A model generated the notes under the pieces. The model did no database searches. It was not told where the DNA came from and worked only from the letters and a program-made list of their open reading frames with translations. 64,000 bases of DNA from a virus (taxonomy: Duplodnaviria > Caudoviricetes). The DNA lies in the IMG/VR virus record IMGVR_UViG_2561511128_000006, positions 8,418 to 72,417 of that record; one strand, given 5' to 3'. The position numbers were made by a program, and so were the translations under genes. This document shows, piece after piece, positions 6,979 through 53,353 of this stretch. Each line of letters starts with the position of its first letter. Position 1 is the first letter of the stretch.

Positions 6979-7179
6979 TTAAGGTACTAATGGATTAATA
7001 TTCATATTAGATAGTTCGGTGATATTTTTATTTGTAAAATCAACTTGTTGAATAGGGTTTGTCTTGATGCCCATATTTTTTAAAATTAACATCATTTCAT
7101 GATGATGTTTCAATGCTGGATTGTTTTCTATATTTTTAAGTAATAATGACATTTTATAATGCTTTTTGTCGATTTTCAT
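6979..7179 (-). CDS. Small AT-rich protein coupled to the SDH-type protease
   Basis: TAATG overlap with the upstream gene; same AT-rich composition. Confidence 0.55.
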   Translation of the reverse strand: MKIDKKHYKMSLLLKNIENNPALKHHHEMMLILKNMGIKTNPIQQVDFTNKNITELSNMNINPLVP

Positions 7180-8060
7180 TAGAGTAAACTCCCATTAGTC
7201 ATTTCTCTAGTATGTAAAAATAATTGATAGTTATATTTTGATGAAAAGTCAATCGCAAGTCTATTATATTCTTTTACTAATCTATATAATTTAAGGTCGT
7301 CTGAATAATCTTCAATCTTTAGCTTTAGATCGTCTTGAAGAGTTTTTATTCCTATATGTCTTCCATGTATATGCCAATGAGCATTATCACCTAATATTCT
7401 AGCTATTTCTTCAGCTCTATGCTCTTTTTCTTTAAGTGTGACTTCGGTATCTGTTTTACTATGAATTGTCCAGTCTTTAAATTTATAATTTACGAGCCAT
7501 TTTTTTAATAGCGTTACGGTTATATTTCGTGCTTGTTGATAAAAATTTAAATCAGCAAGATTTAAATTTAAAGCCATTTGTAACTCTACTGGACTTATGG
7601 GGTTATTAGAATCTTTATTTAATGATTTTTTACATATTGCATCAAATTGATCTAAATACCCTTGTGCAGGAACCCATTGTCCATTAGACAATACTTGAGG
7701 ATCTATAGGGCCTAATGATGAGGCAAAATTCATATATATTTTGTCGCCAGACATGCAAAGAATAGTACCCGCTGAGTATGCATATTCATGTACAATGAAA
7801 TATACTTCATCATAGAACCTACGCATCACCTCAACCATTATCTCAGCCATTTCTACACTGCCGCCATTTGTTGTTAAATTGACAGCAAGAGATTTATGTT
7901 TTTTCTTTCTAGCTAATTTTTCAAATTCAGTGGTAAAGAATGTTCTGTGGTTAGGGTGAATACCACCATAAAACAAAAAAACATCAGACTGGAGATGTTC
8001 TTCTAGTTTAATACAATAATTATTCAAAGCTTCATATGCAACTTTATCAACTGGACCCAT
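7179..8060 (-). CDS. SDH-family ClpP/crotonase-fold serine protease
   Basis: LTTNGGS, AYSAGTILCMSGD (catalytic Ser context), SSLGPIDPQ, H-R-I motif; strongly AT-rich. Confidence 0.85.
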   Translation of the reverse strand: MGPVDKVAYEALNNYCIKLEEHLQSDVFLFYGGIHPNHRTFFTTEFEKLARKKKHKSLAVNLTTNGGSVEMAEIMVEVMRRFYDEVYFIVHEYAYSAGTILCMSGDKIYMNFASSLGPIDPQVLSNGQWVPAQGYLDQFDAICKKSLNKDSNNPISPVELQMALNLNLADLNFYQQARNITVTLLKKWLVNYKFKDWTIHSKTDTEVTLKEKEHRAEEIARILGDNAHWHIHGRHIGIKTLQDDLKLKIEDYSDDLKLYRLVKEYNRLAIDFSSKYNYQLFLHTREMTNGSLL

Positions 8061-8132: not shown

Positions 8133-8789
8133 CTAAACAAGCTGCCAAGTCCAAACGACTTTCCCAATAATGATGTTGTCGTATCCCTCATTAGAAACTT
8201 TCTGTGGTTTCCATCTGGGATTGTCTGAATGGAGGATAATATTACCATCCTCATCTTGCATAACTCTTTTAACAACCAAACCAAATGGGGGACGCTGTAC
8301 AAGGTAAATGCCGCCGTCCTCTAGTTCGTCGTCAAGAGGGATAACACCTACATAAGCCCCTTTTAAGATTGTAGGTTCCATACTGTCGCCAGTAACTTTA
8401 ACGGCACGAACATCGGGAAGATTATACTGAGGGAGAACAGGGATCATATTTTCTGGAGCGGTAGAAAAAAATTCAGCTGGTAGTCCGGCACCTGCTTCTT
8501 CAAAGACAGGTATCTCATGTAAGTTGTCCCCTGTTACGTTTTCAGTAGGAGAGTGACAGGCCATACGACGCATTACAGGATACCTTTCTTCATCCGGGAA
8601 AATCACCAATGCCCCCATAGCTGACAATATTTTTGATACCTTATCGAGCCCAAGTTGCTGGGCTTTGACCCCTAAAGCACGCGACAAGTTCGCCTGACTG
8701 ACGCCACATTTTTGAGCAAATGCAGCTATCTGGCGTTGATCTGAAATGTCCCTCAACCGAGCCATGAGTTTTTCTTCTAGTTCCATACG
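8133..8789 (-). CDS. cI: CI-like repressor (HTH + S24 autoproteolytic domain); exact start uncertain
   Basis: HTH GVSQANLSR; AGAG cleavage site; VTGDSMEP (Ser) and VKR (Lys); divergent from cro. Confidence 0.92.
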   Translation of the reverse strand, partial: RMELEEKLMARLRDISDQRQIAAFAQKCGVSQANLSRALGVKAQQLGLDKVSKILSAMGALVIFPDEERYPVMRRMACHSPTENVTGDNLHEIPVFEEAGAGLPAEFFSTAPENMIPVLPQYNLPDVRAVKVTGDSMEPTILKGAYVGVIPLDDELEDGGIYLVQRPPFGLVVKRVMQDEDGNIILHSDNPRWKPQKVSNEGYDNIIIGKVVWTWQLV

Positions 8790-8843
8790 TTCCTGCATAC
8801 GATACTGAGGACAAAAAGTCATCTTTCGTAAATGTAATTTTAC

Positions 8844-8872
8844 TTGCATATAGATACGTATATGTATATACT
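8844..8872 (+). promoter_or_regulatory. pR-like promoter, cro probably leaderless
   Basis: TTGCAT-17-TATACT, ATG 6 nt after the -10 box with no SD. Confidence 0.75.
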
Positions 8873-8878
8873 TACGCC

Positions 8879-9118
8879 ATGAACACCGAACTTTTCAGAA
8901 CTCACTTGCGCGAAAGAATGCAGATTACCCGGGCAACCCAGATAGAAGTCGAAGAAAAGACTGGAGTTTCTCAGGCGTCGATTTCGCGTTTTTTGTCAGG
9001 GGCAAGGATTAATTCTGACAACTTGTTCAAGTTATGGGAGTTCATTTACGAGGGGCAATTTCCAGCCGCTCCCAGCACTCCCACCGAACCCGAAGAGGTG
9101 AGTCATGGACTGGCCTGA
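8879..9118 (+). CDS. cro: Cro-like HTH protein
   Basis: TQIEVEEKTGVSQASISRF HTH; divergent from cI. Confidence 0.85.
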   Translation: MNTELFRTHLRERMQITRATQIEVEEKTGVSQASISRFLSGARINSDNLFKLWEFIYEGQFPAAPSTPTEPEEVSHGLA

Positions 9119-9376: not shown

Positions 9377-9820
9377 ATGAATACCCAAGATTATAACACG
9401 TTGACGGAAGTTATCGAGGCCATGATCGATGAAGGCAAAAAGCCGATCAAGGCCATCGCCGCCGAGATCGGCAAGCCGTATCCGACTCTCAAGCGTGAGC
9501 TGAACCCGGCTGACGACGGCGCGAAGCTCGGAGCGGACGCACTACTCGGCATTATGGCCTCCTGTGGCTCAATCGCGCCCTTGGAATGGCTGGCGGACAG
9601 GCCCGGTTATGTCGTGAAGCCCAAGGAATGGGCAGAGCCAGACAAGCCGACTTGGGAAGGAGAATCCGTGGACGATACCATATGCTGCGGGAAGATGGTC
9701 ATGCTCATGCAGGAAAAAGCGCATCCGTCCATCGTCTCCAAGGCTGCGGAAGAATGGAAGGACGAGATAGACCAGACGAACACTCGGTATAGGCGAGATT
9801 ACAACCAAGCGAGGCAGTAA
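9377..9820 (+). CDS. Phage regulatory CII-like (CP76 family) protein
   Basis: IAAEIGKPYPTLKRELNP...KLG pattern; position after cro. Confidence 0.75.
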   Translation: MNTQDYNTLTEVIEAMIDEGKKPIKAIAAEIGKPYPTLKRELNPADDGAKLGADALLGIMASCGSIAPLEWLADRPGYVVKPKEWAEPDKPTWEGESVDDTICCGKMVMLMQEKAHPSIVSKAAEEWKDEIDQTNTRYRRDYNQARQ

Positions 9821-26551: not shown

Positions 26552-27478
26552 CTATCCTAGCATCAACCTGTTCGCGGTCTTCGCGGCACGGATGGCCGCT
26601 CTCATTTCCGAGATTCCCGCGTCAATCCACGTCTGGGCGTTGTACGAGTTGGACTGTAGGATGCCGAGAAGCGGATCCTTCGAGATGTTCTGCTGGGAAC
26701 ATACCCGGTTCAGCAGTTCGGGATAAGTGCTCTCCTTGACGCGCAAGAGCTCGTTGACGAATCGGTGGAGCCGGGAGCGGGTTTCCCCCGCGAATTCGAT
26801 CCATTCCTCTTCGAGGCGGTCGAGGGCCGCGATGCGGGCGGCGTAGACGCTGGAGGCGGGAAGCGCAGGGTACGGAATCGCGGATTCCGCCGTGGGTATG
26901 GCATTGATGGCGCGGACACGGACGGAAAGCAGGAACTCGCGGGCCTCGGGCATAAGCCGGGCCGGGAGCTGACTGTATTCCGCGATGCGGAAGTGGCGGT
27001 TGTGCTTCGCCCATATCTCGGCGCGGGCCTTGCCCTGCACGGCGGCGGGGTATGTCGAGAGCTTGGCGTCTACGATGAGCTTGAGCTCGGCACGTTCCGC
27101 CGCACTGATCAGCTCGTCGTTGAGCGTCACAGGCTGTTCAACGGGCACCCTGTCGCCGTACTGCTCGATGACGTCCAGCACCCACTTGCGGAATGCCTTT
27201 GCTACCGGAGTCCGGGCGAACATGGCGAGGAGGTGGCAGCCGCGAAGTGAGAAGATGCGGGCGCGACCCTCAGCCCCGTTTTGGGGCTGTGCGGTAATTT
27301 CAACTAGTTGCGTCATGTCTGGCGTGAATTCATCGGCGTTATTTCGGTAAAGACGCGAAACTTGATTTTCGCGTCCATACCCAAGAGCTCGTGCGAGTTC
27401 TGTAGCGCGAATCCAAGGCTGATTGCCGCGAGTTATGGGGGAGAAAGTGAAATCGTTGAAGCAAAGAGAATGAGACAT
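26552..27478 (-). CDS. BRO-N-domain antirepressor (copy A)
   Basis: ELARALGY...RIFSLRGCHLLAMFARTPVAKAFRKWVLDV; AGGAG RBS before MSHSLCF. Confidence 0.88.
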   Translation of the reverse strand: MSHSLCFNDFTFSPITRGNQPWIRATELARALGYGRENQVSRLYRNNADEFTPDMTQLVEITAQPQNGAEGRARIFSLRGCHLLAMFARTPVAKAFRKWVLDVIEQYGDRVPVEQPVTLNDELISAAERAELKLIVDAKLSTYPAAVQGKARAEIWAKHNRHFRIAEYSQLPARLMPEAREFLLSVRVRAINAIPTAESAIPYPALPASSVYAARIAALDRLEEEWIEFAGETRSRLHRFVNELLRVKESTYPELLNRVCSQQNISKDPLLGILQSNSYNAQTWIDAGISEMRAAIRAAKTANRLMLG

Positions 27479-27521
27479 AACCAACTCCTACTGTTAAGAG
27501 TTGGCATCGCCGATGAATGAC

Positions 27522-27603
27522 GATGCCGGGTGTTCATCACCGCCAGTAGGAGCGGCTCCCTGCCTTTAGCTTACGCTTGGACATATCAGGGACACCCGGC
27601 ATC
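27522..27603 (-). ncRNA. C4-like antisense RNA (copy A), about 82 nt
   Basis: 12-bp closing stem GATGCCGGGTGT/ACACCCGGCATC; loop CCTACTG and segment GTGATGAAC complementary to flanking targets. Confidence 0.72.
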
Positions 27604-27835
27604 AGGAAGATGCAAGTATAGCAGAAAACCAAAGTCAAAAAGAGTCTTGACTTCGGCAAAAGGGCACAAAAAGAGCCATACTATCGGGTGGCGTTGTCCG
27701 CCTACTGTTGGTGTGATGAGCACCGTAGAAAAAAGACAGCACAAAACGCGAAAAATGTAAAGAGAAAAGCAGTGGCGTTGCCCGCATCTGGATGTTCTTC
27801 ATCTGCATTGGCGGACAACGCCACGTTGGAAAGTT

Positions 27836-28906
27836 TTACTTGTTATCGTATTTCAAGGCCGTAGCCCGGATTCGATCCGCAAAGGGGATAATATCTTCCA
27901 GTTTTTCGATGTCTTCCTTTGCGTCCTTATTCTCCCCATCAAACAGTCCGACCCTCCACTGTTTTCCGTTGAAATACAGGCGGCACAGAGGCTTGAGCCT
28001 GTTGTCGTCAAGAAGGATGGAGCAGTAGCTGATGCTGTCCCGCATGGCTACGCGCCCCGGATCAACGGTGCCCATCAGAAGCGATTTGACAAGGTAATAC
28101 GCCTCTTTTTCTTCCTCGGTGGTGACTATACGCGAATCCTGCTCTTTTCCTTGTGGGGTATCTTCGGACTCTATCTCTACAATTTCCGGTTTCTGCTGCG
28201 TCATGGCATTTTTCAATCGGTCGTTGATGCGGTCGTTGATGAACTGGTCAAGCGCAGCGGTAAGGATTGGAGTGAAGCGATCCAGAACGTTTTGCGTGAT
28301 ACGCCCATCATACGTCTGTCCGATGAAAAAGCGTGCGAAATCTTCGTGGGGCGTTTCCATTTGTTCGGACATGAGGCGTTTGAACTCTCGGTTGTACTTG
28401 AGTTCGTTTGCCGCGCTCATGCAGGCATCCCGATCAAACTTGCCTTTTGCCAACTTGCGCAGTTCCGGGAGCAACATTTCATCCATATCGTCAAGGACGA
28501 ACTCCATATAGGGCTTGCTGTCCATTTTGTTGGCTGTTTCAAGATCGGAATAGAACCGGTAACGGTTGCCGTCCGTCAGGATGGCAATGGGGGCTTCCGT
28601 CCCGTGGAAGTAAAGCTGTAGCTGGTTGCAGTGCTTCATGTCGAGAGACGTGCCCAAAGCCTTGCACTCCAGAAGAAGGATAGGCTTGCCGTCCACAAGA
28701 ATCGCATAGTCCACGCGGGCGTCCTTATATTCGCCGATGGGGGCTGAAAATTCGGGCACGACTTCCGCAGGGTTGAAAACGTCGTATCCCAGGGCCGCGA
28801 TGAAAGGCATCACCAAGGCGTTTTTCGTGGCCTCTTCGGTCTTGAGGCTATCTCCCAGATTCTTTACCTTTTTCGACAATTCAGCAATTCTTTCCGAAAA
28901 ATCCAT
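27836..28906 (-). CDS. HsdR N-terminal-like PD-(D/E)XK nuclease-domain protein
   Basis: EEATKNAL..PF..ALGYDVFNP.EV.PE, RVDYAI, LLECK, ILTDG; no helicase motifs. Confidence 0.85.
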   Translation of the reverse strand: MDFSERIAELSKKVKNLGDSLKTEEATKNALVMPFIAALGYDVFNPAEVVPEFSAPIGEYKDARVDYAILVDGKPILLLECKALGTSLDMKHCNQLQLYFHGTEAPIAILTDGNRYRFYSDLETANKMDSKPYMEFVLDDMDEMLLPELRKLAKGKFDRDACMSAANELKYNREFKRLMSEQMETPHEDFARFFIGQTYDGRITQNVLDRFTPILTAALDQFINDRINDRLKNAMTQQKPEIVEIESEDTPQGKEQDSRIVTTEEEKEAYYLVKSLLMGTVDPGRVAMRDSISYCSILLDDNRLKPLCRLYFNGKQWRVGLFDGENKDAKEDIEKLEDIIPFADRIRATALKYDNK

Positions 28907-46682: not shown

Positions 46683-46728
46683 AAGTGCCGCCAAGCATCA
46701 TTAAGTGCTTGGCGGCACTTCTTTTTTG
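46683..46728 (+). terminator. Long hairpin terminator after the tRNA fragment
   Basis: AAGTGCCGCCAAGCA/TGCTTGGCGGCACTT + CTTTTTTG. Confidence 0.75.
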
Positions 46729-46795
46729 CCCCTTTCAGGGGCTTTTTTCGTGTTGCCGAATGCCGTTGAGTGAAGTTGACAGCCGCGATTTTTTT

Positions 46796-46842
46796 GGGGC
46801 AACAATAGGGGCAACTATCTACTATACCCATGGAGTTGCCCC
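46796..46842. repeat. GGGGCAAC x2 direct + 1 inverted, candidate arm-type sites of integrase 2
   Basis: 46796-46803, 46808-46815, GTTGCCCC 46835-46842. Confidence 0.6.
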
Positions 46843-46843
46843 A

Positions 46844-48022
46844 ATGCCTCTGACAGATACGCGGATCAAAGCAGCCAAGCCCACGGATAAGGTCTACAAG
46901 ATTTATGATGCCGAAGGGTTGTACATTGAAGTCCCGCCGAACGGCAGCAAGCGGTGGCGGTTCAAATACAGGATAAACGGCAAAGAAAAACGGATCAGCC
47001 TCGGTATCTATCCCGAGATTGGTTTAAAGGATGCGCGGGAAAAACGTGATGAAGCCCGAAGGCAGGTTGCGGCGGGCCGGGACCCCAGCGTCATAAAAAA
47101 CAAGACTGCATATGCGGAGAAAACCTTTCAGCACATAGCCGACGAATGGGTTGCGCTTCATCGGGCAACATGGGCTCCGCGTCATACGGAAACGGTCGAG
47201 CAAAGGCTGAGAAGCTACATTTATCCGGAACTTGGCAATGTCCCTTTGAAGGACATTACCCCGATTGAAGTCCTGAGCGTGATCAAGGCGATTGAAAAGA
47301 GGGGAGCTTTGGAGGCGGCCCGCAGGACACTCGCGATCTGCTCGCAGGTTTTTCGATATGGAGTCGCTTCGGCACTTATCCCCAGTGACCCCTGTCGGGA
47401 CCTTAGGGGAGCACTTGCGCCACGGGAAGAGGGGCATTTTCCGGCATTGGTGGATCGGGATGGCGCAACGGCAGTGATGCGGGCGATCCATCATTATAAA
47501 GGATCGGCTGTTGTCCGATTGGCGTTGCGTGTGCAGGCTCTGACCTTCGTACGCCCCGGCGAGTTGCGGTGGGCGAAGTGGCCGGAGTTCGATATGGCGG
47601 GTGCGCTCTGGGTGATTCCCGCAGAGCGCATGAAGATGAAGCGGGAACACTGGGTTCCCTTGTCAAGGCAGGTATTGGAGATTCTGGAGGAGCTGCATGA
47701 GATCACAGGTCATCGGGAGTACCTGTTCCCGTCGATGCGGGCGAGAAAGGATGTGCCCATTTCTGAGAACACGCTCAACGCAGCACTCAAGAGTTTGGGC
47801 TTTGACGGCATCCATGTGGCGCACGGTTTTCGGGCGATGGCTTCAAGCCTTCTGAATGAAATGGGCTGGCGCCCGGATGTCATCGAGCGCCAGCTTTCGC
47901 ATGTTGAAGAAAACAAGGTGCGTGCAGCGTACAACCGGGCGGAGTACATTACCGAGCGCCGCCAAATGATGCAGGCTTGGTCTGATTTTCTCGTTGGGTT
48001 GGCTTCCACTTCCCCGCAATAA
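46844..48022 (+). CDS. int: Tyrosine integrase, P4/IntA-like with arm-binding domain
   Basis: MPLTDTRIK..KP..K.YK..D..GLY; R(PGEL), HGFR, QLSH, AYN catalytic motifs. Confidence 0.96.
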   Translation: MPLTDTRIKAAKPTDKVYKIYDAEGLYIEVPPNGSKRWRFKYRINGKEKRISLGIYPEIGLKDAREKRDEARRQVAAGRDPSVIKNKTAYAEKTFQHIADEWVALHRATWAPRHTETVEQRLRSYIYPELGNVPLKDITPIEVLSVIKAIEKRGALEAARRTLAICSQVFRYGVASALIPSDPCRDLRGALAPREEGHFPALVDRDGATAVMRAIHHYKGSAVVRLALRVQALTFVRPGELRWAKWPEFDMAGALWVIPAERMKMKREHWVPLSRQVLEILEELHEITGHREYLFPSMRARKDVPISENTLNAALKSLGFDGIHVAHGFRAMASSLLNEMGWRPDVIERQLSHVEENKVRAAYNRAEYITERRQMMQAWSDFLVGLASTSPQ

Positions 48023-48979: not shown

Positions 48980-49864
48980 TTATGCGAGCTTGCGCAGTGC
49001 GAGCGCGGCCTGGAGCGATGACTGCGCCAGCCCGAGGCTGTACCAGGCGGCGTTGATGTGGTGTTTGATGGCCTTCTCGACTTCAAACGGAACCGAGCCG
49101 ATGCCGCTCAGTTCCCTGCGCACGGTGATATGCGTCCAGTTTTCAGTACCGTCGAGGGCGAAGAGGGCTTTTTCGATGTCGGCGAACAGGCGTTCCGTGG
49201 CGGGGAGGCCGGGGAGCCTTTGGGGAACGGGGCGGCGGGTGACGACTTCCGGCACGGTGGACAGGGTGTCCAGAATGTTCCGCCATGCGTCCGTCTGGCG
49301 GGCAGCGTAGCTCTGGGAGAGGAAGATGATCCCCTCGCGGGAAACCATATACTGCGGGCAGCGCTGGCCCTTGGCGTCTACATAGTTCCCCCTGACGAAA
49401 GCGTCCCGTTGCGGGCAGACGGCGGCGGCGCGGCTTATGGCGTCGAGCACGGTGGAGTGGCGCTTATGCAGCTCTCCGGCGATGGTGCGGGAGGAGATGC
49501 GGGAGAGGGTGCCTGTGGGTGGCGTCTGGGCATCGACGGGCACCCTGTCGCCGTACCGTTCGATGACGTCGAGAACCCACTTGCGGAACGCCTTGGCGAC
49601 GGGTGTCCGGGCGAACATGGCGAGGAGGTGGCAGCCGCGGAGGGAGAAGATGCGGGTCATGACGGGAATTCCCGTGGTACTCGAATTGATGACCACGCTC
49701 ATATCATTGGAAAATTCATCTTCATTGCGGCGGTAAATATTGGCAACCGCCTTTTCGGAAGAATATCCCAAGGCACGGGCAAGTTCAGAAGACTTGAACC
49801 AAGGCTGGTTGTCGCGGGTGACGGGGGAGAAGGTGAACTCATTGAAGCAGAGGGCTTGTGACAT
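48980..49864 (-). CDS. BRO-N + Rha-domain antirepressor (copy B)
   Basis: N-terminus paralogous to 26552-27478; SSR.IA...KRH..VL..I and YVD.KG...PQY...R.G Rha motifs. Confidence 0.88.
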   Translation of the reverse strand: MSQALCFNEFTFSPVTRDNQPWFKSSELARALGYSSEKAVANIYRRNEDEFSNDMSVVINSSTTGIPVMTRIFSLRGCHLLAMFARTPVAKAFRKWVLDVIERYGDRVPVDAQTPPTGTLSRISSRTIAGELHKRHSTVLDAISRAAAVCPQRDAFVRGNYVDAKGQRCPQYMVSREGIIFLSQSYAARQTDAWRNILDTLSTVPEVVTRRPVPQRLPGLPATERLFADIEKALFALDGTENWTHITVRRELSGIGSVPFEVEKAIKHHINAAWYSLGLAQSSLQAALALRKLA

Positions 49865-49914
49865 GATGCAACTCCTACGGATAAAAAAGAGTTGGCATCG
49901 CCTACGAATAGCGA

Positions 49915-49994
49915 ATGCCGGGTGTTCGTAACCGCCCGTAGGTGCGGCTCCCTGCCTTTAGCTTACGCTTGGACATATCAGGGACACCCGGCAT
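49915..49994 (-). ncRNA. C4-like antisense RNA (copy B), about 80 nt
   Basis: Closing stem ATGCCGGGTGT/ACACCCGGCAT; loop CCTACGG and segment GTTACGAAC. Confidence 0.72.
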
Positions 49995-50165
49995 CAAGAG
50001 GATGCAAGTATAGCAGGAAACCAAAGTCAAAAAGAATCTTGACTTTGTCAAAAAGGCACAAAAAGAGCCATACTATCGGGTGGCGTTGTCCGCCTACGGG
50101 AAAAGGTGTTACGAGCACCGTAACCAGACAACGCCACAAAAATGGGGTAATGTCAAGGGTAAATA

Positions 50166-51644: not shown

Positions 51645-51793
51645 GCCAAATAAAAGGCGATAGGGTAGTGGGAAAGTCAAGGCGGCGGGGGACGAAAAAG
51701 CCACTCACGGTGGAAGGGCTTGGGGGAGTTTTCAAATTTGAAGTATACGGATACTCTGTTTTTAAGACAAAACTTATAGAAGAGGGATTGAAC

Positions 51794-53353
51794 ATGGATT
51801 TACATTCGTTGGTAAAAGATTTCAGTACCACGCCATTCCTCTTTGTGGGGTCTGGTTTTTCACGGAGATATTACGATCTTCCCGACTGGGAAGGGCTTTT
51901 GAAGATTTTTGTCCAAAGATTAAGTGGTGATGAATTCGCCTTCAACAAGTATACAAGTACGGCTGAAAGCCTCATCAACTCCGGAAGAGAAGGAGTTCGA
52001 CTTGCCGTTGTAGCAGGACTTGTCATGCAGGATTTTGACAAACGCTGGTATGAGGAGCCATCTTTCAGACAGGTGAAAGATGACTATAAGCCGTTTGTAA
52101 AGAACGGTCAGTCACCATTCAAGGTGGAGATAGCCCAATATATTGATGAGCATTCAATTCCTGTGGAGAACATGCGTGATGAGTTGGCAAAACTAAAGGA
52201 ACTTTCCAACCGTAGTTTGGCTGGTATCATTACCACGAATTATGATCGCCTTCTTGAGGTGGAAACGGAAGGCTATAAATCCTTTGTAGGGCAAGAAGAA
52301 CTTATTTTTTCGGCACTTCAGGGTTGGGCGGAAATATACAAAATACATGGTTCCGTTACCGATCCAAGCACTATTCTTATTACTGACAAAGATTATAGAG
52401 AATTTAAGGAGTTCAGCCCTTATCTTACAGCAAAACTCATGACGATATTTATGGAATATCCTATCATATTTATGGGGTATTCCTTGACTGATCCCAATAT
52501 CCGCATCATATTGGAAGATCTCGGAAAATGCTTATCAAAGAAAAATCTCGAAAAGCTTCAGAGTCGTTTTATTTATGTTGAGCATAAAAGGGGACAGGAG
52601 GATGTGGAGCTTTTTGAACATTCTGTAGCAATCGGTGATGACCATATCCATATGACTGGAATCAGAACAGATAATTTTATGGCGATTTATGAAGCCCTTG
52701 GGGATAAGCGGGCTTCTCTTCCTGCCAAGCTTATTCGTATGTTCAAGCAAGAATTCTACACTTTTGCATTAACTAATGAACCTACGGCTAGAATGCGTGT
52801 GGCTGCTATTGATGACGAAAGGGTAGGGGATGAAGAACTTGTACTTGGAATTGGAAAGTCTTCAGAGTTTGCCTTAAAGGGGCTGTCCGGAATGACGTCA
52901 AGAGAATGGTATCAACATGTCGTTCTGCATGATCTGGAGTTTACTGCCGATGATATTTTAACATATGCTTTCCCGTCCCTATATAGAGCTAATAATGTAT
53001 TACCATTGAATATGTTGCTAAAAGAAGCTGCGGGAAATTATCCAGAGTGTATAGAATGTAGATGTACAAATTTTGATGATATAATTAATGGAAGACATAA
53101 AAAAAATAGAAATAGAAAACATATACCTGCAAGAAGTGTTAACGGAATTGTTGAAACATTCCATAATGATACGCATAAAATTATATACGAAATACCTTAT
53201 CTCAATGAATCTGAAATAGATGTGGATGAGTTAGAGAACTACCTGATAAACTTTTTCCGCCAAAGGGGGGCTTACGACAACCTAAACAGCAATGAAAGAT
53301 CGGATATGAATAGGTTGGTGCGGATATTCGATTACTTGAAATATGGCAGATGA
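51794..53353 (+). CDS. SIR2-like domain protein (candidate NADase)
   Basis: PFLFVGSGFSRRY...W, IITTNYD, IYKIHGS, IIFMGYSLTD; AT-rich. Confidence 0.9.
   Translation: MDLHSLVKDFSTTPFLFVGSGFSRRYYDLPDWEGLLKIFVQRLSGDEFAFNKYTSTAESLINSGREGVRLAVVAGLVMQDFDKRWYEEPSFRQVKDDYKPFVKNGQSPFKVEIAQYIDEHSIPVENMRDELAKLKELSNRSLAGIITTNYDRLLEVETEGYKSFVGQEELIFSALQGWAEIYKIHGSVTDPSTILITDKDYREFKEFSPYLTAKLMTIFMEYPIIFMGYSLTDPNIRIILEDLGKCLSKKNLEKLQSRFIYVEHKRGQEDVELFEHSVAIGDDHIHMTGIRTDNFMAIYEALGDKRASLPAKLIRMFKQEFYTFALTNEPTARMRVAAIDDERVGDEELVLGIGKSSEFALKGLSGMTSREWYQHVVLHDLEFTADDILTYAFPSLYRANNVLPLNMLLKEAAGNYPECIECRCTNFDDIINGRHKKNRNRKHIPARSVNGIVETFHNDTHKIIYEIPYLNESEIDVDELENYLINFFRQRGAYDNLNSNERSDMNRLVRIFDYLKYGR

What the first reader, a model, noticed from the sequence alone, without database searches (positions are those of the whole stretch)
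27481..27830. C4-like antisense-RNA switch controlling the antirepressor of prophage 1
Seen (minus strand): an extended -10 TGCTATACT (about 27615-27623) precedes an ~82-nt element closed by a 12-bp stem. Its hairpin loop CCTACTG (27544-27550) is complementary to CAGTAGG both upstream (27701-27707) and at the antirepressor SD (27487-27493, CAGTAGGAG). Its segment GTGATGAAC (27532-27540) is complementary to CTCATCAC upstream (27713-27720) and TTCATC downstream (27512-27517). Known: P1/P7 C4 and P4 CI RNAs are processed from the same transcript and pair with a/b targets upstream and downstream to silence antirepressor expression. Inference: a homologous or analogous RNA immunity system.
Basis: partly seen in the sequence, partly recalled or inferred. 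Interest (0 to 1): 0.75.

Follow-up and report, generated by a model that had tools for sequence, protein, structure and literature searches.

The report
C4-type immunity RNA guarding prophage antirepressor
A roughly 82-nt folded RNA gene in front of a prophage antirepressor gene carries two short segments that match the gene's ribosome-binding site and a second site upstream, and these matches change together in dozens of related phages, so it is very probably an RNA "immunity" switch of the phage P1 c4 type, in a form that current RNA databases do not recognise.

Summary
I found 87 related copies (52 distinct cores) in Desulfovibrio, Bilophila and Mailhella genomes and gut viral contigs. Compensatory changes support two of the RNA's hairpins. 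The hairpin-2 loop (b') and the 3' junction strand (a') change together with both an upstream site (a1/b1) and a downstream site (a2/b2, on the Shine-Dalgarno of an antirepressor gene). There are 36 loop types and 14 a' types. A match of 6 nt or more occurs in 88-95% of cognate pairs and 5-13% of non-cognate pairs. Topology and site order equal those of P1 c4.

By sequence the element is not a C4 member. Rfam C4, c4-a1b1, isrK and sRNA-Xcc1 do not hit it, and my model does not find P1 c4. It is a sister branch of sRNA-Xcc1 (RF02221). Canonical RF02221 copies in related genomes show the same site logic.

Differences from P1 are no icd-like leader ORF, a -10 element directly before the RNA, and two terminator-like hairpins after b1.

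Base pairing is shown. Action in trans, processing and immunity are inferred.

Verdict: real, and a new variant of a known kind. This scan has already noted sRNA-Xcc1 as a c4-like switch in many other genomes.

The parts
27772..27824 (-). Strong hairpin followed by a U-rich run (27771-27762). Likely the terminator of the upstream endonuclease-like gene, which would insulate the module.
   Evidence: Fold -31.7 kcal/mol. The upstream ORF 27836-28906 matches HSDR_N and phrog_4225.
27733..27761 (-). Candidate upstream promoter P_up. It has a -35 TTTACA (27761-27756), a 17-nt spacer ending in TGc, and a weak -10 TGTCTT (27738-27733). The predicted start is near 27726.
   Evidence: In relatives, conservation begins exactly at a TTGACA hexamer followed by a TGn and a variable weak -10. 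Promoter function is inferred.
27710..27724 (-). Small hairpin GGTG/CACC that presents target a1 (27719-27713) in its loop.
   Evidence: The flanks are invariant and the loop varies with a' in relatives. The hairpin appears in the MFE of the leader.
27701..27707 (-). Target b1, the complement of the hairpin-2 loop.
   Evidence: A cognate complement of 6 nt or more is present in 88% of combinations, against 6.6% for non-cognate.
27668..27702 (-). Small hairpin GGCG-loop-CGCC, then a weak terminator-like hairpin T1 (27692-27675) and a T-run (27674-27668). P1 has the same arrangement after its b1.
   Evidence: Conserved in nearly all relatives. The P1 sequence shows a similar hairpin, terminator and T-run, modelled by Rfam isrK. 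Terminator function is inferred.
27628..27657 (-). Second terminator-like hairpin T2, followed by a T-rich run.
   Evidence: A hairpin is present in most relatives in two different registers.
27615..27623 (-). Extended -10 element TGCTATACT (candidate P_int). The predicted start lies about 5 nt before the closing stem.
   Evidence: A strict TAnnnT hexamer lies 12-15 nt before the stem core in 30 of 54 distinct flanks (32 within the 10-24 nt searched), and near-variants such as TATAAG, TATAAA and CATAAT are visible in most of the rest. No -35 hexamer was found.
27522..27603 (-). The about 82-nt antisense RNA. Closing stem: 27603-27592 with 27533-27522. Hairpin 1: 27591-27558. Hairpin 2: 27556-27539, with b' (27552-27544) in its loop. 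The a' segment (27540-27533) spans the 3' arm end and the junction strand.
   Evidence: Fold. Compensatory changes occur in hairpin 1 (4 of 5 outer pairs) and hairpin 2 (3 of 5 pairs). Model R1 scores 94 bits here. It is not a tRNA.
27512..27517 (-). Target a2. It lies in the loop of a possible hairpin formed by the 3' strand of the closing stem and 27507-27501.
   Evidence: The alternative hairpin was seen.
27485..27493 (-). Target b2. Nine nt are complementary to the hairpin-2 loop and include the GGAG Shine-Dalgarno, 6 nt before the ATG.
   Evidence: A cognate complement of 6 nt or more is present in 93% of combinations, with a mean of 8.0 nt.
26552..27478 (-). Antirepressor gene (308 aa, Bro-N N-terminal domain), the regulated gene.
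   Evidence: Pfam Bro-N 3.2e-11. phrog_2127 anti-repressor 8.7e-41.
49914..49995 (-). Second copy of the RNA in the window. It has a different b' (CCTACGG) and a' (GTTACGA) and matching targets, and sits before a second Bro-N antirepressor (49864-48980).
   Evidence: (89 bits).
8133..8849 (-). CI-like repressor with a Peptidase_S24 domain, next to a divergent Cro-like HTH (8879-9118) and a CII-like gene (9377-9820). It is the presumed target of the antirepressor.
   Evidence: The link to the antirepressor is inferred.

Best explanation
This is a c4-type RNA immunity module (immI-like) of a temperate Desulfovibrionaceae phage.

An about 82-nt RNA is transcribed from the minus strand, probably from its own extended -10 promoter. 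It folds into a three-way junction. The junction exposes a 7-9 nt recognition sequence b' in the loop of hairpin 2, and a second sequence a' of 6-8 nt in the strand joining hairpin 2 to the closing stem.

b' pairs with the Shine-Dalgarno region (b2) of the antirepressor mRNA, and a' pairs with a2 a little upstream. Ribosomes therefore cannot initiate, no antirepressor is made, and the CI-like repressor elsewhere in the prophage stays active.

The same two sequences also match a1/b1 in a short leader further upstream. That leader has its own promoter-like element and ends in a weak terminator. This second site either attenuates transcripts entering the module or acts as a decoy for the RNA.

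Because the pairing depends only on the sequences of a' and b', they would also define the phage's immunity specificity. The three copies in this genome carry three different b' sequences.

Shown: the fold, and the pairing of a'/b' with both target pairs, through co-variation. Inferred: transcription start, processing, action in trans, translational block, and the immunity phenotype.
For: Anatomy at the stated coordinates.

Structure: the fold is stable. In 52 distinct sequences 95.8% of cells are paired, and 11 pairs carry changes on both sides, against slid controls of 2-5. RNAalifold independently predicts the closing stem, the outer stem of hairpin 1 and hairpin 2, but not the inner pairs of hairpin 1.

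Three-way co-variation: there are 36 loop types, 14 a' types and 42 combinations. Complements sit at fixed positions: b1 near -105 to -109 (a second group near -76), b2 at +32 to +44 on GGAG, a1 near -115 to -120, and a2 at +8 or +32. Matches of 6 nt or more occur in 88, 93, 90 and 95% of cognate pairs (b1, b2, a1, a2), against 6.6, 12.6, 7.8 and 4.8% of non-cognate pairs.

Regulated genes: they are antirepressor types in nearly all copies, namely Bro-N, Phage_pRha and ORF6N.

Comparison with P1: annotated P1 has the same site order, and b' and a' occupy the same structural positions.

Promoter: a -10-like hexamer is conserved just before the RNA.

Related RNA: members of the sister family sRNA-Xcc1 accumulate as a discrete RNA of about 88 nt in Xanthomonas (PMC2996969).

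Specificities: co-resident copies differ.

Context: a CI/Cro/CII-like region is present in the same prophage.
Against: There are no expression data for this organism.

Rfam C4, c4-a1b1, c4-2 and isrK give no hit. My model does not detect P1 c4. Homology with C4 is therefore unproven.

The focal copy has no U-run after the closing stem, so its 3' end would need processing. Otherwise the RNA stays attached to the ant mRNA and could act in cis.

The candidate promoter before the RNA lacks a -35 hexamer.

The closing-stem core was fixed by my search pattern, so it shows no variation by ascertainment.

Four of the 53 loci tabulated (L044, L047, L041, L010) lack one or more matching targets. At least two of them are rearranged.
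Confidence: 0.8

Rival explanations
1. The element is a purely cis-acting leader. It is never released. Its loop pairs with the Shine-Dalgarno region of the same transcript as an intramolecular translational lock, and a1/b1 provide an alternative partner that opens the lock on longer transcripts. It would not act as a trans-acting immunity factor.
For: RNA and targets lie on one transcription unit. The focal copy has no terminator-like U-run after the closing stem. Co-variation cannot tell cis pairing from trans pairing. Transcripts from the upstream promoter would carry a1/b1, the RNA and a2/b2 together.
Against: The RNA is a closed, very stable three-way junction with short exposed recognition loops, which is typical of kissing-type trans regulators. 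It has a conserved -10 element of its own. In 22 of 54 distinct flanks the closing stem is followed by a U-run, which would release a discrete RNA. The related sRNA-Xcc1 is a discrete 88-nt RNA (PMC2996969), and P1 c4 acts in trans (PMC12197685). The many orthogonal specificities, and the different ones in co-resident prophages, are what a trans-acting immunity factor predicts.
Confidence: 0.1
2. The RNA works mainly by transcription termination, like P4 CI RNA, rather than by blocking translation. Pairing at a1/b1 would favour terminator T1, and pairing at a2/b2 would provoke Rho-dependent termination inside ant.
For: Two terminator-like hairpins with T-runs follow b1 and are conserved. The same b1-hairpin-terminator arrangement exists in P1. 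In P1, by my own knowledge of the literature, the translational block of icd leads to Rho-dependent termination before ant.
Against: b2 always covers the GGAG of the regulated gene, which points to ribosome exclusion as the primary event. Folding of the focal leader did not show the switch between the small hairpin and T1 that I expected; T1 already forms in the unconstrained MFE. The two mechanisms are not exclusive.
Confidence: 0.07
3. It is a trans-acting host-directed small RNA, as proposed for sRNA-Xcc1 in Xanthomonas and Xylella, and the flanking complementarities are incidental.
For: The nearest Rfam family, sRNA-Xcc1, is described in the literature as a trans-acting, virulence-associated sRNA with many predicted targets (PMC2996969, PMC12189769).
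Against: Thirty-six loop types each match their own flanks at fixed positions, while non-cognate matches are rare. The same holds for canonical RF02221 copies. A conserved host target could not tolerate this much variation in the recognition loop.
Confidence: 0.02

Closest known systems
c4 antisense RNA and immI operon of phages P1/P7 (Rfam C4 RF01695 with c4-a1b1 RF03163, clan CL00128)
   Same: The RNA is a three-way junction of similar size (82 versus 77 nt). b' lies in the loop of the second hairpin and a' in the strand between that hairpin and the closing stem. The order is a1, b1, small hairpin plus terminator-like hairpin with T-run, RNA, a2, b2. b2 lies on a ribosome-binding site, and the final regulated gene is an antirepressor. 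Natural variants differ in a'/b'.
   Different: The covariance models do not cross-detect in either direction. There is no icd-like ORF, so b2 sits directly on the ant Shine-Dalgarno. Hairpin 1 is longer and has a conserved interior. The closing stem is 12 bp rather than about 17. An extra hairpin and a -10 element lie between b1 and the RNA, whereas both P1 promoters lie upstream of a1. There is no CCA-like 3' tail. The host is in Desulfovibrionaceae, not Enterobacteria.
sRNA-Xcc1 (Rfam RF02221)
   Same: It shares the same closing-stem sequence core, hairpin 2 and junction. The models cross-detect weakly: RF02221 gives 27-33 bits on some members, and R1 gives 35-50 bits on RF02221 members. 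Canonical RF02221 copies in the same bacterial family, and in this genome, sit before antirepressor-type genes and show the same a1/b1 and a2/b2 logic.
   Different: The window copies get no RF02221 hit even at E<=10. Relatives stay under the 53-bit cut-off. The interior of hairpin 1 differs between the two types (an ATGTCCA..AAAGG type against an AATACAA..GGGGAA type). The papers I found describe sRNA-Xcc1 as a trans-acting or virulence-linked sRNA, or as lying upstream of symE or ORF6N genes, and none describes it as a c4-type switch (PMC2996969, PMC12189769, 10.1101/2025.06.18.660453, 10.1101/2020.03.17.996009).
IsrK of Salmonella Gifsy-1 (Rfam RF01394)
   Same: It is a short leader carrying c4-type target sites and ending in a terminator, which exists as a short RNA and as a read-through form ahead of an antirepressor-containing operon (PMC4825925). 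On P1, the isrK model covers a1/b1 plus the terminator.
   Different: There is no RF01394 hit here. In Gifsy-1 the short form activates translation of the long form. Nothing here shows such an activity.
P4 CI RNA (own knowledge, not tested here)
   Same: It is a processed immunity RNA with complementary sites upstream and downstream on its own transcript.
   Different: P4 CI acts through premature transcription termination and controls replication genes. No sequence comparison was possible with the tools used.

Membership tests
Rfam C4 (RF01695) | Scores at or above the family's gathering threshold (45 bits) with the covariance model | tested here: not met
   No hit in the window at gathering, none at E<=10 in 27300-28000, and none in 16 related loci at E<=1. 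The positive control, P1 c4, scores 68.8 bits.
Rfam C4 (RF01695) | Three-way junction with b' in the hairpin-2 loop and a' in the 3' junction strand | tested here: met
   Structure with compensatory changes. Positions of the complementary segments, compared with the P1 alignment and annotation.
P1/P7 immI system | Target pairs a1/b1 upstream and a2/b2 downstream of the RNA on the same strand, with b2 on a ribosome-binding site | tested here: met
   Cognate matches 88-95%, non-cognate 5-13%.
P1/P7 immI system | A small leader ORF (icd) whose translation is the direct target and is coupled to ant | tested here: not met
   b2 is 6 nt before the ATG of the 308-aa Bro-N protein itself. No short ORF intervenes.
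P1/P7 immI system | Regulated gene is an antirepressor | tested here: met
   Bro-N and PHROG anti-repressor here. Bro-N, Phage_pRha and ORF6N in relatives. Antirepressor activity itself was not tested.
P1/P7 immI system | The RNA is excised from a longer precursor, with its 5' end made by RNase P, and acts in trans to give immunity | not testable with these tools
   This needs RNA mapping and genetics. A conserved -10 element directly before the RNA suggests a primary transcript with a leader of only about 5 nt.
Rfam c4-a1b1 (RF03163) / isrK (RF01394) | Leader matches the covariance model | tested here: not met
   No hit at E<=10. On P1 the models score 51 and 35 bits. The layout is nevertheless similar: a1 in a hairpin loop, then b1, a small hairpin, and a terminator with a T-run.
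Rfam sRNA-Xcc1 (RF02221) | Scores at or above the gathering threshold (53 bits) | tested here: not met
   No hit on the window copies. Some members of the same variant family score 27-33 bits. True RF02221 members elsewhere in this genome score 57-60 bits.
Rfam sRNA-Xcc1 (RF02221) | Shared fold and conserved closing stem, hairpin 2 and junction | tested here: met
   Alignment of 16 intermediate and canonical members to model R1. The difference is confined mainly to the interior of hairpin 1.

The most novel reading that the evidence does not exclude
The upstream half of the module is a second regulatory RNA. The leader from P_up carries a1 in a hairpin loop and b1 next to it, and stops at its own terminator T1. 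It would therefore be released as a decoy of about 60 nt that titrates the immunity RNA. Induction of the prophage would then be an RNA-against-RNA contest: a decoy, an antisense RNA, and the antirepressor mRNA. The same design would apply to the whole sRNA-Xcc1 superfamily, including the copies in Xanthomonas integron cassettes and the Xylella arrays now read as virulence sRNAs.
Probability: 0.25. Interest if true: 0.75.

Novelty: new variant of a known kind. Interest (0 to 1): 0.58.

Why it matters
It extends the P1 c4 type of RNA-based phage immunity to temperate phages of sulfate- and sulfite-reducing gut bacteria (Desulfovibrio, Bilophila, Mailhella). It does so in a sequence family that Rfam models miss.

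The family offers a natural library of at least 42 orthogonal two-part RNA recognition codes on one scaffold. That library is useful for studying how short kissing interactions achieve specificity, for predicting which gut prophages are mutually immune, and as parts for synthetic regulation.

Together with the canonical copies analysed here, it gives the orphan family sRNA-Xcc1 a concrete, testable mechanism: local control of the gene immediately downstream. This differs from the trans-acting virulence role discussed in the papers I could search.

Tried and rejected
- Rfam at gathering over the whole window, and at E<=10 locally: no C4, c4-2, c4-a1b1, isrK or sRNA-Xcc1 hit. The only local hit was a chance lncRNA match.
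- blastn of the 341-nt region against phage records and E. coli genomes: nothing.
- Reciprocal test with my model R1 against the P1 immI region: P1 c4 not found at E<=10. Common ancestry with C4 rests on layout only.
- tRNA or tmRNA: none.
- A long-range RNA stem enclosing a1/b1, between the motif at the -10 of P_up and the hairpin after b1. I rejected it as an RNA structure because its 5' arm lies in or before the predicted promoter, is not kept in G009a, G010 and G056, and in the focal copy sits inside the upstream gene's terminator. The repeated 15-nt motif remains unexplained.
- An antiterminator model, in which the small hairpin after b1 competes with terminator T1 and binding of the RNA frees T1. 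The MFE of the focal leader already forms T1 without the RNA, so it is not supported.
- Whole-RNA duplex folding against the targets was uninformative because it unfolds the RNA. Loop-only probes were used instead.
- A classical -35 hexamer for the promoter before the RNA: none at 16-18 nt spacing (own reading).
- Literature: no paper in the held library describes this RNA in Desulfovibrionaceae phages or links sRNA-Xcc1 to c4. Subscription papers are not covered.

Full report
OBSERVATION.
- The extended -10 TGCTATACT lies at 27623-27615.
- A perfect 12-bp closing stem pairs 27603-27592 with 27533-27522 and encloses about 82 nt.
- A hairpin loop carries CCTACTG at 27550-27544.
- Its complement lies upstream at 27707-27701. 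It also occurs as a 9-nt match at 27493-27485, which includes the GGAG 6 nt before the ATG at 27478.
- The segment at 27540-27532 is complementary to 27719-27713 upstream and to 27517-27512 downstream.
- The RNA folds at -41.8 kcal/mol with z = -3.8.
- The ORF that follows (308 aa) has a Bro-N domain and matches PHROG antirepressor families.
- ARAGORN finds no tRNA.

DATABASE STATUS. Rfam gives no hit at gathering thresholds anywhere in the window. At E<=10 in 27300-28000 it gives no C4, c4-a1b1, c4-2, isrK or sRNA-Xcc1 hit. As a positive control, the same search on the P1 immI region finds C4 at 68.8 bits, c4-a1b1 at 51 bits and isrK at 35 bits. blastn finds nothing in 50,697 phage records or in E. 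coli genomes.

RELATIVES.
- The window's genome has three copies: 27.5 kb and 49.9 kb in the window, and one on another contig. Four relatives' genomes carry more.
- A structural pattern taken from these copies retrieved 58 true matches in IMG/VR.
- It retrieved 20 true matches in the species-representative genomes. Seventeen carry titles naming Desulfovibrio, Bilophila, Mailhella or Desulfovibrionaceae. The other three are titled Lachnospiraceae, "Proteobacteria bacterium" and "uncultured bacterium". The remaining matches in that search had the wrong length and lacked the conserved hairpin-1 motif, and I took them for chance matches.
- A covariance model built from 52 distinct cores (R1) finds matches in 25 of 151 sampled genomes of the bacterial family, in 21 of 72 genera.

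STRUCTURE. On the 52-sequence alignment, 95.8% of cells form standard pairs. Eleven pairs carry changes on both sides, against 2-5 when the partners are slid. Four of five outer pairs of hairpin 1 and three of five pairs of hairpin 2 show compensatory changes. RNAalifold independently predicts the closing stem, the outer stem of hairpin 1 and hairpin 2, but not the inner pairs of hairpin 1. The core of the closing stem cannot vary in this set because my search pattern fixed it.

THE KEY RESULT: THREE-WAY CO-VARIATION. For each copy I extracted the hairpin-2 loop (b') and the segment from the end of hairpin 2 into the closing stem (a'). I then looked for their complements in the flanks.
- Complements sit at fixed places. 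b1 is about 105-109 nt before the stem core, or about 76 in a shorter subgroup. a1 is about 10 nt further upstream. b2 is 32-44 nt after the RNA and nearly always runs into GGAG. a2 is either 8 nt after the RNA or directly before b2.
- Among 66 parsed copies there are 36 different loops, 14 different a' segments and 42 combinations.
- Using one representative per combination, a complement of 6 nt or more is present at the expected place in 88% (b1), 93% (b2), 90% (a1) and 95% (a2) of cognate pairs. For non-cognate pairs the figures are 6.6%, 12.6%, 7.8% and 4.8%.
- a' and b' are shuffled independently. For example, the focal b' occurs with two different a'.
- The three copies in this genome have three different b'.
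- Four of the 53 loci tabulated lack one or more targets. In at least two of them the antirepressor has been lost and another module follows.

This shows that a' and b' pair with both target sets. It does not show whether they do so in cis or in trans.

REGULATED GENES. The first ORF after b2 is a Bro-N, Phage_pRha or ORF6N protein in nearly all copies. All three are antirepressor-type N-terminal domains. Rare exceptions are an ATP-dependent DNA ligase and small unknown ORFs. The module is thus a portable control cassette for antirepressors. The prophage also has a CI-like S24 repressor, a Cro-like gene and a CII-like gene at 8.1-9.8 kb, so it has two immunity regions, as P1 and P22 do.

COMPARISON WITH P1. 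In the annotated P1 record the order is promoters, a1, b1, C4 RNA, a2, b2, icd, ant. In the Rfam alignment of P1 c4, b' lies in the loop of the second hairpin and a' in the strand between that hairpin and the closing stem. The element here has exactly that topology and order. After b1, P1 has a small hairpin, then a terminator-like hairpin and a T-run, and so does this family. The differences are:
- no icd-like ORF;
- a longer hairpin 1 with a conserved interior;
- a shorter closing stem;
- an additional hairpin (27657-27628) and a -10 element between b1 and the RNA;
- no model cross-detection in either direction.

It works like c4, but it fails the sequence-family test for C4.

NEAREST SEQUENCE FAMILY. 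Some members of the family score 27-33 bits on Rfam sRNA-Xcc1 (RF02221, cut-off 53). Conversely, R1 scores 35-50 bits on loci that reach 48-64 bits on RF02221. Aligned together, they share the closing stem, hairpin 2 and the junction. They differ mainly inside hairpin 1. The window's genome also holds three RF02221 hits above the cut-off and one just below. Canonical RF02221 copies show the same a1/b1 and a2/b2-on-SD logic.

The papers I could search describe sRNA-Xcc1 in several ways:
- as an 88-nt Northern-verified sRNA with many predicted trans targets (PMC2996969);
- as a possible virulence or vesicle cargo RNA (PMC12189769);
- as lying upstream of symE in integron cassettes (10.1101/2025.06.18.660453);
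- as lying upstream of an ORF6N gene in APSE phages (10.1101/2020.03.17.996009).

None describes a c4-type mechanism. Earlier notes of this scan reached the same reading for sRNA-Xcc1 in many other genomes. I reached it here from my own data before looking them up. Those notes are not independent evidence.

LEADER AND PROMOTERS (inferred).
- Sequence conservation among relatives begins exactly at a TTGACA hexamer (TTTACA in the focal copy, 27761-27756). A 17-nt spacer ending in TGn and a weak, variable -10 follow. This would start transcription just before an invariant GGTG...CACC hairpin that presents a1 in its loop.
- In the focal copy a strong terminator of the upstream gene precedes this, so the module is insulated.
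- A strict TAnnnT hexamer lies 12-15 nt before the stem core in 30 of 54 distinct flanks (32 within the 10-24 nt searched). Near-variants are visible in most of the others. No -35 hexamer accompanies it.
- In 22 of 54 flanks the closing stem is followed by a U-run that could end the RNA. The focal copy has none, so its 3' end would need processing.
- In the focal copy, the 3' strand of the closing stem can alternatively pair with 27507-27501, which places a2 in a loop.

MECHANISM PROPOSED. The RNA is made continuously in the lysogen. Its loop b' and strand a' bind b2/a2 on the ant mRNA and block initiation. The antirepressor stays off and the CI-like repressor holds the prophage. An incoming phage with the same a'/b' is silenced in the same way, while one with different a'/b' is not. 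The role of a1/b1 is open: attenuation at T1, or a decoy RNA. My specific antiterminator idea was not supported by folding.

VERDICT. The element is a real, conserved, co-varying RNA switch of the c4 kind. It belongs to an unrecognised branch next to sRNA-Xcc1 and is carried by Desulfovibrionaceae phages. I class it as a new variant of a known kind, of moderate to good interest.

Noticed in passing
window 27826-27812 and 27702-27688: The 15-nt motif of the small hairpin that follows b1 recurs as an exact reverse complement inside the terminator of the upstream gene. In most relatives this inverted copy overlaps the -10 region of the upstream promoter instead. It may be a protein operator pair or a recombination scar. 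It remains unexplained.
   Followed up: partly
window 48980-49995: The second copy of the module has a different a'/b' code and sits before a second Bro-N/Rha antirepressor. It lies next to an integrase (46685-48022), a DUF2971 gene, a YoeB/YefM toxin-antitoxin pair and a SIR2_2 protein (51668-53353), so it sits in a defence-gene neighbourhood.
   Followed up: partly
window 7179-8060: A ClpP/SDH-type serine protease gene lies directly downstream of the CI-like S24 repressor gene, in the position of an exclusion or moron gene.
   Followed up: no
G000 contig C29, 39092-39175 and 39702-39789 (L144, L145): Two canonical sRNA-Xcc1 (RF02221) elements lie 610 nt apart on the same contig as the third copy of the variant RNA. 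With one more hit over the cut-off and one just below it, this genome has seven RNAs of the superfamily.
   Followed up: partly
L021:1872-2197: A viral contig carrying the module has an array of six CRISPR-DR4-like repeats about 350 nt from the RNA (28.6-28.7 bits, below the 35-bit cut-off).
   Followed up: no
L110:5967-6957: In one Desulfovibrio genome the same RNA module, with matching b2, precedes an ATP-dependent DNA ligase gene instead of an antirepressor.
   Followed up: partly
L044:1293-1696 and L010:403-1352: These are tandem arrangements. A variant-type module has lost its antirepressor (in L010 an opposite-strand gene pair is inserted) and is followed by a complete RF02221-type module with its own a/b code, placed before an antirepressor-type gene (Rha-like by my reading in L010).
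   Followed up: yes
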